NCBI GenBank assembly: GCA_049515915.1
Contig: JBEKTP010000006.1
Span: 4,865 to 68,864, forward strand
DNA length: 64,000 bases
Direction: 5' to 3'
Source of the DNA: Patescibacteria group bacterium
GTDB taxonomy: Bacteria; Patescibacteriota; UBA1384; UBA12157; JAENIV01
Below are positions 2,690-62,271 of this stretch, piece by piece. The notes under the pieces were generated by a model, which ran no database searches, was not told where the DNA came from, and worked only from the letters and a program-made list of their open reading frames with translations. The translations under genes were made by a program, and so were the position numbers. Within the stretch, counting starts at the first letter, position 1; each line of letters starts with the position of its first letter.

Positions 2690-2819
2690 GGCTCTCCTTC
2701 TTTGATTGGTGACCTTCCGCTTTCAGCTTGATTATCTTTTTAAATAATCCGATTGTCAACATATAATTGAAAAAGAAGTTAGATTAAGCTAAAATAAATA
2801 AGAGTTAGACGATTCTTTT

Positions 2820-2893
2820 GGCCACTTAGCTCAGTCGGTTAGAGCGTCGCGTTCACATCGCGAAGGTCGACCGTTCAAGTCGGTCAGTGGCCA
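2820..2893 (+). tRNA. tRNA-Val (anticodon CAC)
   Basis: Cloverleaf: acceptor GGCCACT/AGTGGCC, D-arm GCTC..GAGC, anticodon stem TCGCG/CGCGA with loop TTCACAT, T-arm GACCG TTCAAGT CGGTC. Discriminator A, CCA not encoded. Confidence 0.85.
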
Positions 2894-2920
2894 CGGCTAA
2901 AAATTCTAGAAGGAGAAATA

Positions 2921-40233: not shown

Positions 40234-40341
40234 CCAAAATTCCCCCGCCTGGGGGATTTTTGGTTGCGAAAACTATAATTATCTGGTAAAATAATTTAGA
40301 AATGTACAAAAAAACATTTTATCAATGTTTAATTTACACAT

Positions 40342-40418
40342 GGGCTCGTAGCTCAGTTGGTTAGAGCGTCACGTTGACATCGTGAAGGTCACCCGTTCAA
40401 ATCGGGTCGGGCCCACCA
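40342..40418 (+). tRNA. tRNA-Val (anticodon GAC)
   Basis: Acceptor GGGCTCG/CGGGCCC, anticodon stem TCACG/CGTGA with loop TTGACAT, T-arm ACCCG TTCAAAT CGGGT, encoded CCA. Confidence 0.85.
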
Positions 40419-40482
40419 CTAAAAAATATCTCCGCTCTTTTGTTAGGAGATTTTTTTATAAAAAGTACTTATTTTAGTCGAT

Positions 40483-45800: not shown

Positions 45801-45876
45801 TGGCGCCCTCGGCAGGATTCGGACCTGCGACCTAGACGTTAGGAGTGTCTCGCTCTATCCCCTGAGCTACGAGGGC
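45801..45876 (-). tRNA. tRNA-Arg (anticodon CCT)
   Basis: Minus-strand cloverleaf: acceptor GCCCTCG/CGAGGGC, anticodon loop CTCCTAA, T-arm GCAGG TCCGAAT CCTGC, encoded CCA. Confidence 0.8.
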
Positions 45877-45985
45877 ATCGCTATCTCGATTTTACCATAA
45901 TGATAAGGTATAATAAAGTCGATTGGGGTGTAACGCAGTTACAAAGCATGTTAGCGCGTCTCCGACAAAGTCGGAGTAAAAGTTT

Positions 45986-52979: not shown

Positions 52980-54039
52980 CTACTCTCTTAGCCAAAACCA
53001 ATATTGATTTTCTAACTCTTGGTGAAGTTCATAAGTATTAGCGTGAGACAAAACGCCAAGATATGAATTTAAGGACTGTTTTATTGTCTCTTCGCTAATT
53101 AATCCTGTTTTATATTCCTTTACTCCTAGCTTTAACTTCTGGAAAATTCTTCTTTTTGTCTTAGTCCTTAAAAGCCGATGCTTTGGAAAGACGACAAAGC
53201 CCAAAAAATCAATTCCCTGACGAAATTTTCTAATCAAGATTTTGTTCGGATGAATTTCTAATTTGAGTTTTGTGGTTAAAAAAGCTTTTATTTTAGGGAT
53301 TAAATTCAACAAACATCTTTCGTTATCTGACACAATCACAAAATCGTCGGTATATCGAACGTAATACTTTACTTTTAAGCTGTGTTTTATAAAATAATCA
53401 AATTCATTAAGATAAATATTGGCAAAAAGCTGGCTGGTTAAGTTGCCGATGGGTATTCCCCGGCCGAAGGCCGTCTCTCTCTCTCTCTCTCGATTCGAAC
53501 GGGAAACTTTCAATAATTTCTCTTAGAAGCCAAATAGTGTTATCATCTTTAATTTTTTTGGTGATAATCGAAAGTAAAATTTTATGATCAGTTGAATCAA
53601 AAAATTTCTTAATGTCACATTTTAAAACGAAACAAGATTTTTGGCTATTTTTGCTGACTTTATTTAATGCATAAGCTAAATAATTTACCCCTTTATGAGT
53701 TCCTTTCTTAACCCGACAGGAAAAGGAGTGGGCGATAAACGTAGGCTCAAAAAGCGGATTTAGAACCCGAAAAACCGCATGGTGTAAAATCCGGTCTCGA
53801 ACAGCTGCCTTATGAATTTTTCGCTGTTTAGGATCGCAAATGGTAAATGAGGTATAGACACCATGTTTATATCTGTGATACTTTAAGTCGCGGTGAAGCT
53901 TTAAGATATTTGATTCTAAATTCCACTCGAATTCCAAAACATCTTTTTTCTTGAGCTTGTCTACCTTAAACTCTTCCCAAGCAAGAAAAAGATTTTCAAG
54001 TGAAATAATTTCGTCAAAAATATCAGTATAAAATTTCAT
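52980..54039 (-). pseudogene. DGR-type reverse transcriptase split into two overlapping frames at a (GA)n tract
   Basis: ORF 53407..54039 carries RT motifs 1-3 (RKIHKAAVRDRILHHAV, CDIKKFFDSTDHKIL). ORF 52980..53513 carries the DGR hallmark IGNLTSQ (IGxxxSQ) and YxDD (YVRYTDDFVIV). The frames differ by +1 and meet at the tract. Confidence 0.65.
53474..53490. repeat. (TC)8.5/(GA)8.5 dinucleotide microsatellite at the RT frameshift site
   Basis: tctctctctctctctct on the + strand, coding RERERE in both RT frames. Confidence 0.9.
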
Positions 54040-54053
54040 CGAAAGTAAAACCG

Positions 54054-54401
54054 ATGCAAGAATTCGATATTCCCATCTTTAAGAAAACTTATGAACTTTA
54101 CAAAAATTTTCATTTCGTTAGAAACACAGCGCCCAAACAAGAACGCTACACTATTTTTCTAAAATGTGAAAATATTATCCTTGAAATTATCGAAGGGATT
54201 TTAGAAGCGAGCGAGCTTTACAAAAATGAAAAAATGCCAGTTTTGAGAAAAACCAGCCGGAAACTGAATTTACTGAGAGTTTTCGTGCGTTTAATGAAAG
54301 ATACGGAATCGATTAAATTGAAAGACTACACCGTAATGGAAGAAGAGATTGACGAAATTGGCCGCATGCTCGGCGGCTGGATCAAGTCTACTAAGGAATA
54401 A
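54054..54401 (+). CDS. avd: Four-helix-bundle protein (23S rRNA IVS protein family), Avd-like accessory variability determinant
   Basis: 115 aa. ...YELYKNF..NTAPKQERYTIFLKCENIILEIIEG......IDEIGRMLGGWIKS matches the PF05635/TIGR02436 pattern. Divergent from the RT with a 14-bp gap. Confidence 0.75.
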   Translation: MQEFDIPIFKKTYELYKNFHFVRNTAPKQERYTIFLKCENIILEIIEGILEASELYKNEKMPVLRKTSRKLNLLRVFVRLMKDTESIKLKDYTVMEEEIDEIGRMLGGWIKSTKE

Positions 54402-54412
54402 AAGAAAAACGC

Positions 54413-55363
54413 CTACTTTCGCAAGCGTCTTTCTTTTACAAGGAGAGACTTCGGGAGGAAGCCAGATGCAGAGCCATAGCACCCGCTGGCATCGTCAATC
54501 CAGCGGGAGCCGAACCAGACCTCATCGTCGCGGAAGCGGAAGCACGGCGCGCCGTCGAACTGGCCACCGGCTCCCGAACTGAATTCGTCTCCGGCACAAT
54601 CGATCCAGAGGTCGTCATAGCGCTGAAGGCGTACCGGATTGGTCAGGATCATGACCCCAACCACGAAGGCTCCTAGACCAAATTCGCCCGTCGTGCATTC
54701 AATGACGACACGAGCTCGGCGAACGCTGCGGCCCCGATGGCGAATGCCGAACTGGGCCGGGACGACCAGAATGTCGGGGTTGCCCTGAACTTCGGCAAGT
54801 TCCTTCCAGAACTTCTTGGAACGAGCCGACTGGCGCAGGTGCTTTTCGTCAATCTGGCCCTCACGGTAGTTATAGAACCTACCGTCGCGAGCCTTCTTGA
54901 TTGCGTTGAGCACGGTCTGCACCGCCTGGCTGTAGGTCGAGCCGAAGGTCCCAGGATTCTTCATCCAGTTGGGGATGGCAAACCATCCCTCGGCACCCAC
55001 AGGCAGTTCGACCTCACCCTTCTCGATCTGCTGGAGCAGATCATGATTGGCGTAGCCGACGCCCGGGAACACTGCGCGGAGCTGGTTGCACTGTTCAGTG
55101 AGCCCGGCCGGCTTGCTGTAGCCGGAGAGGTAGCCGTACTTTGACGGCACTTCCTCGTCGCTGAATTCGTTTCTGACGCGATGCTCAGCGATGAAGTTAC
55201 CGATCAAGTCGGCAAGGCCCGGCGTCTCGTTGACGCGCTGGGCCTCGTCTTCGGAGAGTGCCGCATTGTTGTATGCGGCTTCGACCACCGAGATGAACTT
55301 GAGACCCTTGGGGTCTCGGGTGGTAACAGACGGAGCCAATGCTTTCCTAGACATCGGAGCCAT
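54413..55363 (-). CDS. GC-rich hypothetical protein, candidate DGR target
   Basis: 316 aa, no family recognised. C-terminal Gly/Trp/Cys-containing segment (...VWFGSRWIDDASGCYGSASGF) abuts Avd and ends in a hairpin (54401-54436). Confidence 0.3.
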   Translation of the reverse strand: MAPMSRKALAPSVTTRDPKGLKFISVVEAAYNNAALSEDEAQRVNETPGLADLIGNFIAEHRVRNEFSDEEVPSKYGYLSGYSKPAGLTEQCNQLRAVFPGVGYANHDLLQQIEKGEVELPVGAEGWFAIPNWMKNPGTFGSTYSQAVQTVLNAIKKARDGRFYNYREGQIDEKHLRQSARSKKFWKELAEVQGNPDILVVPAQFGIRHRGRSVRRARVVIECTTGEFGLGAFVVGVMILTNPVRLQRYDDLWIDCAGDEFSSGAGGQFDGAPCFRFRDDEVWFGSRWIDDASGCYGSASGFLPKSLLVKERRLRK

Positions 55364-62099: not shown

Positions 62100-62172
62100 C
62101 GCCCCTGGAGGGAATCGAACCCCCAACCTTGACGTTAGAATCGTCCTGCTCTATCCGTTGAGCTACAGGGGC
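62100..62172 (-). tRNA. tRNA-Arg (anticodon TCT)
   Basis: Acceptor GCCCCTG/CAGGGGC, anticodon loop ATTCTAA, T-arm GGGGG TTCGATT CCCTC. Confidence 0.75.
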
Positions 62173-62271
62173 ATAAAATAAAAAAAGTTTACGCTACAAA
62201 AATTATAGCATATTTTACCCTTAAAAGACAGAGGCCCGCTGGCGGTTCAAATTTGTTATAATAAAAGTACT

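What the first reader, a model, noticed from the sequence alone, without database searches (positions are those of the whole stretch)
53474..53490. Dinucleotide (GA)8.5 tract exactly at the RT frameshift: phase-variable switch or assembly error
The two RT ORFs are in frames differing by +1 and overlap only across the (TC/GA)n tract. Both frames read RERERE through it. Gain of one GA unit (or loss of two) would restore a single ~345-aa RT. This could be slipped-strand phase variation controlling retrohoming, or a homopolymer/dinucleotide sequencing artefact.
Basis: seen in the sequence. Interest (0 to 1): 0.6.

Follow-up and report, generated by a model that had tools for sequence, protein, structure and literature searches.

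The report
Slippery GA repeat splits DGR transcriptase
A run of nine GA units breaks the reverse-transcriptase gene of a protein-diversifying retroelement in a tiny uncultured bacterium. The same gene turns up elsewhere with 8, 9 or 10 units, only 10 being readable, and about a hundred related elements carry the same unstable run, so it looks like a natural on/off switch for targeted mutation.

Summary
A perfect (TC)9 run, (GA)9 on the coding strand, lies at 53474-53491. It is the only dinucleotide run of 5 or more units in 64 kb, and it splits an otherwise intact reverse transcriptase (RT) into two ORFs one frame apart. The RT is of the diversity-generating retroelement (DGR) type: it has the IGNLTSQ and YTDD motifs, an adjacent Avd gene, and a GC-rich target gene with an adenine-specific variable region.

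Public assemblies of the same Patescibacteria locus carry 8, 9 or 10 units. Ten units gives the predicted 353-aa RT exactly. Several contigs show no other difference over 7-13 kb, so this is not an assembly error, and the gene shows no further decay.

The pattern holds across the family. Of 101 metagenomic RT homologues with a (GA) run of 7 or more units at this position, 83 are out of frame. Ninety-four read open after one unit is added or removed, and 27 of the out-of-frame ones retain diversified TR/VR pairs.

Best reading: a slipped-strand switch on DGR RT expression, mostly OFF.

Caveat: in this genome the template repeat (TR) and variable repeat (VR) have collapsed into one hybrid copy. 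No read-level data were available, and no prior description was found.

The parts
53474..53491 (-). Perfect (GA)9 dinucleotide tract inside the RT coding sequence. This is the frameshift point. Alleles of 8, 9 and 10 units occur in public assemblies.
   Evidence: establish the tract and its rarity. establish the alleles.
53407..54039 (-). RT N-terminal ORF of 210 aa (RT motifs 1-3). It ends in a 22-aa out-of-frame tail after the tract.
   Evidence: RVT_1 positions 8-103. In one search it is identical to P0121, NCBI MGA2667073.1.
52980..53513 (-). RT C-terminal ORF in the +1 frame of the N-terminal ORF. It carries IGNLTSQ, the YTDD catalytic motif and the thumb, with no other lesion.
   Evidence: Every column invariant in 35 homologues is kept.
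52980..54039 (-). Complete DGR-type reverse transcriptase gene. It is 353 aa when the tract has 10 units and 351 aa with 7.
   Evidence: predicts it. Searches find it as P0123 in loci L005 and L006. One search gives E = 5e-46 to chain 8ub7_A, which I take from memory to be the Bordetella phage DGR RT.
53461..53473 (-). GC hairpin CGGCC-UUC-GGCCG directly 3' of the tract on the mRNA strand. It could stimulate slippage, but it is not conserved across the family.
   Evidence: -8.3 kcal/mol here. Only about 28% of relatives have a hairpin of -5 kcal/mol or stronger.
54054..54401 (+). avd, the DGR accessory variability determinant, divergent from the RT.
   Evidence: Pfam bAvd at 65 bits against a cutoff of 40. 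NCBIfam DivGenRetAVD at 81.6 bits against a cutoff of 80.
54413..55354 (-). DGR target gene of 313 aa, 59% GC, with no Pfam or NCBIfam family. Its last 14 or so residues are read-through into former TR-flanking DNA.
54448..54576 (-). Single 129-nt hybrid TR/VR unit. It aligns with the VR of relatives together with the target gene upstream, and with the TR of relatives together with avd downstream.
   Evidence: No second copy was found in the window or in the sequence fetched beyond either end, about 84 kb in all.
54480..54573 (-). 21 variable positions. The window allele has G, C or T where the allele in L010-L012 has A at every one. Six of them form AAY-codon pairs.

Best explanation
The (GA)n run is a truly hypermutable simple-sequence repeat. 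It sits in a length-tolerant surface loop just before the IGNLTSQ motif of a DGR reverse transcriptase. Polymerase slippage adds or removes GA units. Only one length class in three (7, 10 or 13 units here) gives a full-length RT; the others truncate the protein before its catalytic YTDD motif. The tract therefore works as a stochastic, heritable ON/OFF switch on RT supply, and through that on adenine-directed mutagenic homing into the target gene. OFF is the usual state in populations.

Shown: the length polymorphism among near-identical genomes, its effect on the reading frame, the intact rest of the gene, and the same arrangement in about 100 related DGRs, many with diversified VRs.

Inferred: that switching is reversible and frequent within a lineage, that RT protein level follows the frame, and that selection maintains the tract.

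In this particular genome TR and VR have recombined into one hybrid copy. The switch is present and still slipping, but canonical TR-to-VR diversification is probably no longer possible.
For: 1. Same locus, different lengths. The product of the 9-unit allele occurs on 21-24 contigs across 43 index blocks. The 8-unit product was read on 9 contigs (6 on record) and the 10-unit in-frame product on 2 contigs. Both products match the sequences predicted exactly.
2. L005 (10 units) and L007-L009 (8 units) differ from the window by zero substitutions over 9.5-13 kb, the tract aside. L006 (10 units) and the short L013 (8 units) are likewise identical apart from the tract. Across all the contigs there are at least 3 tract changes against 2 SNPs and one VR event, so I estimate the tract mutates roughly 10,000-fold faster per site.
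3. The 8-unit allele is linked to a distinct haplotype in L010-L012, so length is inherited and is not technical noise.
4. There is no other lesion. All invariant RT columns are kept on both sides of the tract.
5. A perfect AGA/GAG run is not needed to encode RERERE. Its probability under this window's codon usage is about 1e-4.
6. Family level, homologues found by homology search. Perfect GA runs sit at the same codon position in 4 of 80 genome homologues with different flanks.
7. Family level, homologues found by scanning for the tract. Of the 101 with RT halves on both sides of the tract, 18 are in frame, 44 are +1 and 39 are +2. Ninety-four read open after a change of one unit. The pipeline was validated on L001, L005 and L007.
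8. The out-of-frame excess holds for tracts of 18 nt or less (25 of 30) and after dereplication.
9. Of 10 near-identical locus clusters (one of them three chance, non-RT hits), 6 differ in tract length.
10. Of 46 tract-bearing loci with enough upstream sequence, 36 have TR/VR pairs with 8-25 mismatches, almost all at TR adenines. Of those 36, 27 have an out-of-frame RT.
11. L095 and L128 (OFF) and L117 (ON) share an identical TR but have differently diversified VRs.
12. The tract maps to an insertion relative to the RT of 8ub7 and to a loop of very variable length in the homologues.
Against: No reads were available, so mixed lengths within one population, reversibility and switching rate are all unshown.

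Some ENA, JGI and Logan contigs may be assemblies of the same samples, so there are fewer independent observations than contigs.

In this genome no separate TR exists within about 84 kb. The two ON contigs carry the same VR allele as the OFF contigs, so no consequence of switching is visible here.

In-frame alleles are rarer than the one-third expected from free slippage (18 of 101, p = 0.0007). That fits selection for OFF, but it also fits relaxed selection with some bias, or expression by recoding.

The tract-bearing RTs are a minority of the family: 4 of 80 in a sample biased towards intact genes.
Confidence: 0.62

Rival explanations
1. Neutral mutational hotspot in a dying element. The DGR here is already broken because TR and VR are fused, the RT is no longer under selection, and the repeat simply drifts in length. 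The frameshift is then an early pseudogene lesion, not a regulatory device.
For: There is a single hybrid TR/VR and no second copy within about 84 kb. Only two VR alleles appear across more than 25 contigs. The ON contigs show no VR change. OFF states predominate.
Against: The RT has no second lesion and keeps every invariant residue. In relatives, the same out-of-frame tract sits in cassettes with intact, diversified TR/VR pairs (27 loci). Ninety-four of 101 RTs have the tract as their only defect. Closely related strains with one identical TR carry differently diversified VRs and differ in RT frame (L095 and L128 against L117). Perfect runs of up to 51 nt persist at one codon position in RTs only 34-81% identical to the window's RT, and neutral repeats should acquire interruptions.
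Confidence: 0.2
2. Recoding. Full-length RT is made from out-of-frame DNA, either by RNA polymerase slippage on the GA run or by ribosomal slippage of 2 nt. On a GA run the P- and A-site tRNAs would re-pair perfectly on GAG and AGA after such a shift. The DNA frame would then set only the expression level.
For: In-frame DNA is under-represented, as if it were not required. A stable hairpin abuts the tract here and in about 28% of relatives. The re-pairing argument is inference from codon geometry.
Against: There is no preferred shift: 44 loci need +1 and 39 need +2, whereas a programmed site normally fixes one frame relation. The hairpin is not conserved (mean z = -0.7). To my knowledge, documented bacterial transcriptional slippage involves homopolymer runs. 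In 41 of 101 relatives a stop codon directly follows the tract, so one OFF frame ends at once.
Confidence: 0.1
3. Sequencing or assembly artefact. PCR stutter or assembler error at the repeat produced a false length, and the true gene is in frame.
For: Dinucleotide repeats do stutter in amplified libraries. Two short contigs, L012 and L013, both end 70 nt past the tract.
Against: The 9-unit state recurs on 21-24 contigs from several pipelines: k141 contigs in ENA, JGI assemblies and NCBI. The 10-unit state recurs in a JGI assembly and a Logan assembly. The 8-unit state co-segregates with a 21-site haplotype. An 18-nt run lies well inside Illumina read length. Among relatives, tracts of 18 nt or less are out of frame as often as long ones. 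The RT coding sequence outside the tracts shows almost no frameshifts.
Confidence: 0.03

Closest known systems
Simple-sequence-repeat contingency loci (slipped-strand phase variation), for example the CT/GA dinucleotide tracts in Helicobacter pylori outer-membrane protein genes such as sabA (PMC2715451, PMC4081817) and, from memory, oipA
   Same: A perfect dinucleotide run lies inside a coding sequence. Unit gain or loss moves the gene between one ON frame and two OFF frames. Length differs among otherwise identical genomes.
   Different: The switched gene is the RT of a mutagenic retroelement, not a surface or modification protein. The host is an uncultured Patescibacteria (CPR) bacterium. 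The tract is kept at one codon position across a large, divergent gene family. Switching rate and reversibility have not been measured.
Canonical DGR: Bordetella phage BPP-1 with bRT, Avd, TR and VR (PDB 8ub7 series), and the CPR cassette layout that Wu et al. 2018 report as 'architecture B3' for 90% of CPR DGRs (PMC5758913)
   Same: The RT has IGxLTSQ and YxDD and matches 8ub7 at E = 5e-46. Avd passes as an equivalog. The target has a C-terminal VR and adenine-specific differences. Relatives are laid out as target(VR), spacer, TR, avd on the opposite strand, then RT.
   Different: A GA-repeat insertion interrupts the RT. In this genome TR and VR are one hybrid copy, so there is no separate template. 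The target is of unknown fold: the model has pLDDT 86 and no significant PDB match.
Phasevarions: phase-variable DNA methyltransferases such as modA (PMC4525171, PMC6828955)
   Same: A repeat tract sits inside an enzyme gene, so one stochastic switch changes a downstream genome-level process rather than a single structural product.
   Different: The downstream process here is targeted sequence diversification of one gene, not methylation-dependent regulation.
Rescue of frameshifted genes by polymerase infidelity at poly(A) tracts in reduced-genome endosymbionts (recalled from the literature, not checked here)
   Same: Small-genome symbiont-like bacteria, with genes interrupted at slippery tracts that may still yield some full-length product.
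   Different: Those tracts are homopolymers and the rescue is transcriptional. Here the tract is a dinucleotide repeat and the DNA alleles themselves vary.

Membership tests
Diversity-generating retroelement (DGR) | RT of the DGR clade, with the [I/L/V]GxxxSQ motif 4 and the YxDD catalytic motif | tested here: met
   The restored protein contains IGNLTSQ and YTDD. The best solved relative is chain 8ub7_A, deposited simply as 'Reverse transcriptase' and which I take from memory to be the Bordetella phage DGR RT. E = 5e-46, with GIPIGSLTSQLFAN aligned.
Diversity-generating retroelement (DGR) | Accessory Avd gene next to the RT | tested here: met
   Pfam bAvd scores 65.2 bits against a cutoff of 40. 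NCBIfam DivGenRetAVD equivalog scores 81.6 bits against a cutoff of 80.
Diversity-generating retroelement (DGR) | A TR/VR repeat pair differing at TR adenines | tested here: not met
   No second copy was found in the window or in the sequence fetched beyond either end. A single 129-nt unit occupies both the VR and the TR positions of relatives. Adenine specificity shows only as an allelic difference: 21 of 21 sites are N in the window and A in L010-L012. Relatives do have canonical pairs: 53 of 80 and 36 of 46.
Diversity-generating retroelement (DGR) | VR at the 3' end of a target ORF | tested here: met
   The variable sites fall in the last 60 or so codons of the 313-aa ORF, and homologous targets end just after the VR.
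Diversity-generating retroelement (DGR) | IMH and hairpin homing signals, and demonstrated mutagenic homing | not testable with these tools
   This needs functional assays or within-sample VR diversity from reads.
SSR contingency locus (slipped-strand phase variation) | A perfect simple-sequence repeat within a coding region, more than chance would give | tested here: met
   (GA)9 is the only such run in 64 kb, with 0.02 expected. The chance of encoding RERERE with AGA and GAG throughout is about 1e-4.
SSR contingency locus (slipped-strand phase variation) | Repeat-number polymorphism among otherwise isogenic genomes | tested here: met
   8, 9 and 10 units occur with zero flanking substitutions over 7-13 kb. 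Six of 10 near-identical clusters among relatives vary in tract length.
SSR contingency locus (slipped-strand phase variation) | Length changes toggle the reading frame between ON and OFF with no other lesion | tested here: met
   for this locus. For relatives, 94 of 101 read open after a change of one unit.
SSR contingency locus (slipped-strand phase variation) | High-frequency, reversible switching within a clonal population, with a phenotypic consequence | not testable with these tools
   No reads, cultures or expression data were available.
Programmed frameshift or recoding site | A fixed frame relation between the upstream and downstream ORFs across homologues | tested here: not met
   The frame classes are 18 in frame, 44 at +1 and 39 at +2.
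Programmed frameshift or recoding site | A conserved stimulatory structure downstream of the slippery site | tested here: inconclusive
   A hairpin of -8.3 kcal/mol is present here. Only about 28% of relatives reach -5 kcal/mol or stronger, and the mean z against shuffles is -0.7.
Group II intron RT/maturase (classical retrohoming) | Match to the group II RT/maturase equivalog model | tested here: not met
   TIGR04416 scores 150 bits against a cutoff of 300. The 353-aa protein ends about where the 328-aa RT of 8ub7 ends (query 4-348 aligned to chain 5-324), which leaves no room for additional maturase or endonuclease domains. No search for intron RNA was run.
Retron RT (the JGI label 'retron-type reverse transcriptase') | Match to a retron RT model | tested here: not met
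   NF038233 scores 55 bits against a cutoff of 235. The context is Avd plus a VR-bearing target, not msr/msd.

The most novel reading that the evidence does not exclude
A whole clade of Patescibacteria (CPR) DGRs carries a conserved, hypermutable (GA)n tract inside the RT gene. The tract acts as a second-order evolvability control. Slipped-strand switching keeps the hypermutation engine OFF in most cells and turns it ON in a stochastic minority. Populations then sample new target-protein variants without every cell paying the cost of losing an adapted one. This would be the first known regulatory mechanism of DGR activity built on phase variation.
Probability: 0.45. Interest if true: 0.85.

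Novelty: new variant of a known kind. Interest (0 to 1): 0.72.

Why it matters
DGRs are the only known prokaryotic systems that deliberately rewrite a protein-coding segment. How their activity is restrained or triggered is largely unknown, and least of all in the uncultured CPR bacteria where they are most abundant.

A repeat-length switch inside the RT would give a simple, heritable and reversible answer. It would also couple two classes of localized hypermutation: slippage at a simple repeat, and adenine mutagenesis by the RT.

There is a practical consequence. Gene callers split or drop these RTs, and 83 of 101 are out of frame, so DGR surveys that require an intact RT probably under-count active CPR elements.

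The idea can be tested directly with existing metagenome reads. The fraction of in-frame tract alleles should predict VR microdiversity across samples.

Tried and rejected
1. Looked for a TR in the window with the repeat finder, with blastn-short using both VR alleles, and in the sequence fetched beyond each end of the window. None was found.
2. Scanned metagenome contigs and genome contigs with an adenine-masked TR/VR pattern. There were no hits at all, so those collections do not hold this genome and the scans say nothing about a distant TR.
3. Initially inferred that no in-frame version existed, because the best hit was 72% identical. This was wrong. The 353-aa allele sits inside the cluster whose representative is the 210-aa fragment.
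4. Tested whether a hairpin next to the tract is a conserved feature. It is not.
5. Tried to count how often TR/VR collapse recurs in relatives from the distance between target and avd. The result was uninformative because tblastn with the target protein also hits the TR.
7. Rejected group II intron and retron readings of the RT, both below the model cutoffs.
8. Literature searches found no description of a repeat-switched DGR RT. The key CPR DGR paper, Paul et al. 2017 (PMC5436926), is not held and could not be checked.

Full report
THE OBSERVATION

The + strand reads (TC)9 at window 53474-53491, which is (GA)9 on the - strand.

The tract is the only dinucleotide run of 5 or more units in the 64-kb window, and no homopolymer reaches 9 nt. 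A dinucleotide-preserving shuffle expects 0.02 such matches.

Two - strand ORFs meet at the tract. ORF 54039..53407 (210 aa) matches Pfam RVT_1 positions 8-103. ORF 53513..52980 (177 aa) matches positions 110-204 and lies in the +1 frame of the first.

Rebuilding the sequence with 5 to 13 units shows that 7, 10 or 13 units give one ORF of 351, 353 or 355 aa. All other lengths truncate the protein at 197-212 aa.

WHAT THE GENE IS

The restored protein carries IGNLTSQ and YTDD. Its best solved relative is PDB chain 8ub7_A, deposited as 'Reverse transcriptase', which I take from memory to be the Bordetella phage DGR RT. E = 5e-46, and the tract-encoded residues fall in a gap between 'LPDE' and 'GVGIPIGSLTSQ' of that chain.

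Group II intron and retron models score far below their cutoffs.

Divergently upstream lies avd (54054-54401, + strand). It passes the Pfam bAvd cutoff and the NCBIfam DGR-Avd equivalog cutoff.

Eleven bases beyond the 3' end of avd, a convergent 313-aa ORF ends (54413-55354, - strand). It is 59% GC, against 42% for the window and 33% for the RT.

Thousands of RTs of about 349 aa from Patescibacteria are 60-74% identical to this one. In an alignment of 35 of them, the tract falls in a loop whose length ranges from 0 to about 50 residues. Several of the closest homologues read RERE, or RERERERERE, at that point.

THE SAME LOCUS IN OTHER ASSEMBLIES

The exact 210-aa truncated product, whose tail depends on there being 9 units, is on record on 21-24 contigs across 43 index blocks. 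These come from ENA, JGI, Logan and NCBI (MGA2667073.1).

Its 90% cluster also holds a 199-aa protein and a 353-aa protein. They are letter for letter the products I had predicted for 8 and 10 units.

Fetching the DNA confirmed the alleles:
- (GA)8 in L007-L013.
- (GA)9 in L001-L004.
- (GA)10 in L005 (a JGI assembly) and L006 (a Logan assembly).

L005 and L007-L009 differ from the window by no substitution at all over 9.5-13 kb; the tract indel is the only difference. L006 and the short L013 are likewise identical apart from the tract.

Counting events across the contigs gives at least three tract changes, because the 8-unit allele occurs on two haplotypes. Against that stand two SNPs and one VR event. 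I estimate the tract mutates about four orders of magnitude faster per site than its surroundings.

The 8-unit length co-segregates with a distinct haplotype in L010-L012. Length is therefore inherited and is not random technical noise.

This rules out an assembly error as the main explanation. It also rules out a pseudogene that is accumulating lesions, because the C-terminal half keeps every residue that is invariant in the homologues.

THE DGR CONTEXT, AND A COMPLICATION

L010-L012 differ from the window at 21 positions, all within 54480-54573. At every one of them the window has G, C or T and L010-L012 have A on the target's coding strand. Six of the positions form the first two bases of AAY codons. 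This is the DGR adenine signature, so the GC-rich ORF is the target gene.

No template repeat exists in the window or in the sequence fetched beyond either end, about 84 kb in all.

In relatives the cassette is laid out as follows:
- target gene with the VR at its 3' end;
- a spacer of roughly 350-570 nt;
- the TR;
- about 12 nt;
- avd on the opposite strand;
- the RT.

Wu et al. 2018 (PMC5758913) report that one layout, 'architecture B3', accounts for 90% of CPR DGRs. I did not confirm from the paper that the layout above is B3.

In this window a single 129-nt unit (54448-54576) aligns collinearly with the VR of relatives plus the upstream target gene. The same unit also aligns with the TR of relatives plus the downstream avd. 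In addition, the target protein carries about 14 extra C-terminal residues that homologues lack.

TR and VR have therefore collapsed into one hybrid copy, as recombination between the two direct repeats would produce.

Why two hybrid alleles exist is unresolved. One is VR-like and dominant; the other is TR-like, with A at all 21 sites. Either two separate deletions occurred from an intact ancestor that is not in the data, or there was one deletion followed by self-templated mutagenesis. Canonical TR-to-VR diversification is unlikely in this genome, and the two ON contigs carry the same VR as the OFF contigs.

THE FAMILY-WIDE PICTURE

Among the 80 best genome homologues, all of them intact RTs, four carry perfect GA runs at the same codon position within otherwise different flanks. 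The runs are 10, 12, 21 and 27 nt long.

I then ran a frame-agnostic scan of metagenome contigs for seven or more GA units followed within 10-40 nt by the IGNLT codons.

For 101 of these loci, RT N- and C-terminal halves flank the tract. The tracts are 15-51 nt long. Only 18 are in frame, 44 need +1 and 39 need +2. The method assigns the known 9-, 10- and 8-unit alleles correctly.

After adding or removing one GA unit, 94 of the 101 read open across both halves. Among the 60 with full-length coverage, 57 do. The tract is thus essentially the only lesion in these genes.

The shortage of in-frame alleles is significant against the one-third expected from free slippage (p = 0.0007). It survives dereplication (17 of 92) and holds for tracts of 18 nt or less (5 of 30 in frame). 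Repeat-length-dependent sequencing error therefore does not explain it.

Six of ten clusters of near-identical loci differ in tract length, some with 100% identical flanks.

Of 46 tract-bearing loci with enough upstream sequence, 36 have TR/VR pairs with 8-25 mismatches, almost all at TR adenines. Of those 36, 27 have the RT out of frame.

In one lineage, L095 and L128 (18-nt tract, OFF) and L117 (20-nt tract, ON) share an identical TR but carry differently diversified VRs. That cassette has been active while the tract changed state.

MECHANISM

The best-supported reading is slipped-strand mispairing at a coding dinucleotide repeat. It toggles the RT between one ON frame and two OFF frames, and so gates mutagenic homing. 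OFF predominates in consensus assemblies.

Shown: the polymorphism, its effect on the frame, the integrity of the rest of the gene, recurrence at one codon position, and association with functional-looking cassettes.

Inferred: reversibility and switching rate, protein-level consequences, and selective maintenance. Maintenance is suggested in two ways. Long perfect runs persist in RTs only 34-81% identical to the window's RT. And the chance of encoding RERERE entirely with AGA and GAG is about 1e-4 under this window's codon usage.

RIVALS

A neutral hotspot in a dead element fits this genome's collapsed TR/VR. It does not fit the family-level data.

Recoding, by RNA polymerase slippage or by 2-nt ribosomal slippage, is geometrically possible on a GA run. 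A hairpin of -8.3 kcal/mol abuts the tract here. However, no single frame relation is preferred and the hairpin is not conserved.

A sequencing artefact is contradicted by reproducibility across assemblies and pipelines, by linkage of tract length to a haplotype, and by the behaviour of short tracts.

COMPARISON AND NOVELTY

The tract behaves like a classical contingency locus, of which dinucleotide examples are known in Helicobacter pylori. What it switches, however, is the engine of a DGR.

Full-text searches found nothing on repeat-switched or phase-variable DGR RTs, nor on simple-repeat phase variation in Patescibacteria. The main CPR DGR survey, Paul et al. 2017, could not be read.

I rate this a new variant of a known kind. 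The main uncertainties are the missing read-level evidence and the collapsed state of the DGR in this particular window.

Noticed in passing
window 54448-54576 (- strand); L010-L012, L215: TR and VR of this DGR are fused into one 129-nt hybrid unit. It exists as two alleles. The VR-like allele is on 22 contigs. The TR-like allele has A at all 21 variable sites, is seen only with 8 GA units, and is linked to SNP 52716 A>G in L010 and L011. N-to-A change at 21 of 21 sites cannot come from DGR mutagenesis, so the origin of the pair is unexplained. Possibilities are two independent VR x TR deletions, or one deletion followed by self-templated homing.
   Followed up: partly
window 54413-55354 (- strand): The target gene is 59% GC in a 42% GC window (RT 33%, avd 36%). 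It belongs to a large Patescibacteria family of proteins of about 300 aa with no Pfam or NCBIfam model. The AlphaFold model is confident (pLDDT 86) but has no Foldseek PDB match below E = 0.2. Its last 14 or so residues (LPKSLLVKERRLRK) are missing from homologues.
   Followed up: partly
L094-L211 (relatives), directly 3' of the GA tract: In 41 of 101 relatives a TAA or TAG codon directly follows the tract, typically as ...GAGAGtaaa. One of the two OFF frames therefore terminates immediately, while the ON frame reads through as R-V-K/N.
   Followed up: partly
L094-L211 as a set: In-frame tract alleles are rarer than the one-third expected from unbiased slippage: 18 of 101, or 17 of 92 after dereplication. 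This suggests selection against the ON state, or expression that does not need an in-frame gene.
   Followed up: partly
window 53461-53473 (- strand): A GC hairpin, CGGCC-UUC-GGCCG (-8.3 kcal/mol), starts at the first base after the tract. Similar palindromes occur in some relatives (for example L159 and L172 at -15 kcal/mol), but only about 28% reach -5 kcal/mol or stronger.
   Followed up: yes
L127, L208, L111, L211: Some relatives have compound repeats at the same site. In L127 and L208 a (TC)n run is directly followed by the (GA)n run. In L111 and L211 a poly-G run directly follows the GA tract.
   Followed up: no
L012 and L013 (window position 53404): Two short contigs from different assemblies both end exactly 70 nt past the tract. 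In addition, 907-nt contigs on record for the C-terminal RT fragment (cluster 2) begin, judging by where their 117-aa products start, near window 53335. This pattern could reflect assembly-graph branching caused by mixed tract lengths in those samples.
   Followed up: no
L212/L213 5751-7946 (just beyond the low-coordinate end of the window): A 731-aa radical SAM protein has weak intein-splicing and LAGLIDADG hits, so it may be an intein-containing gene in this small genome.
   Followed up: no
window 2819-2903 with 40341-40425, and 45804-45878 with 62100-62174: The only long repeats in the window are two pairs of tRNA-like sequences, 75-80% identical. They are ordinary and unrelated to the DGR.
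   Followed up: no
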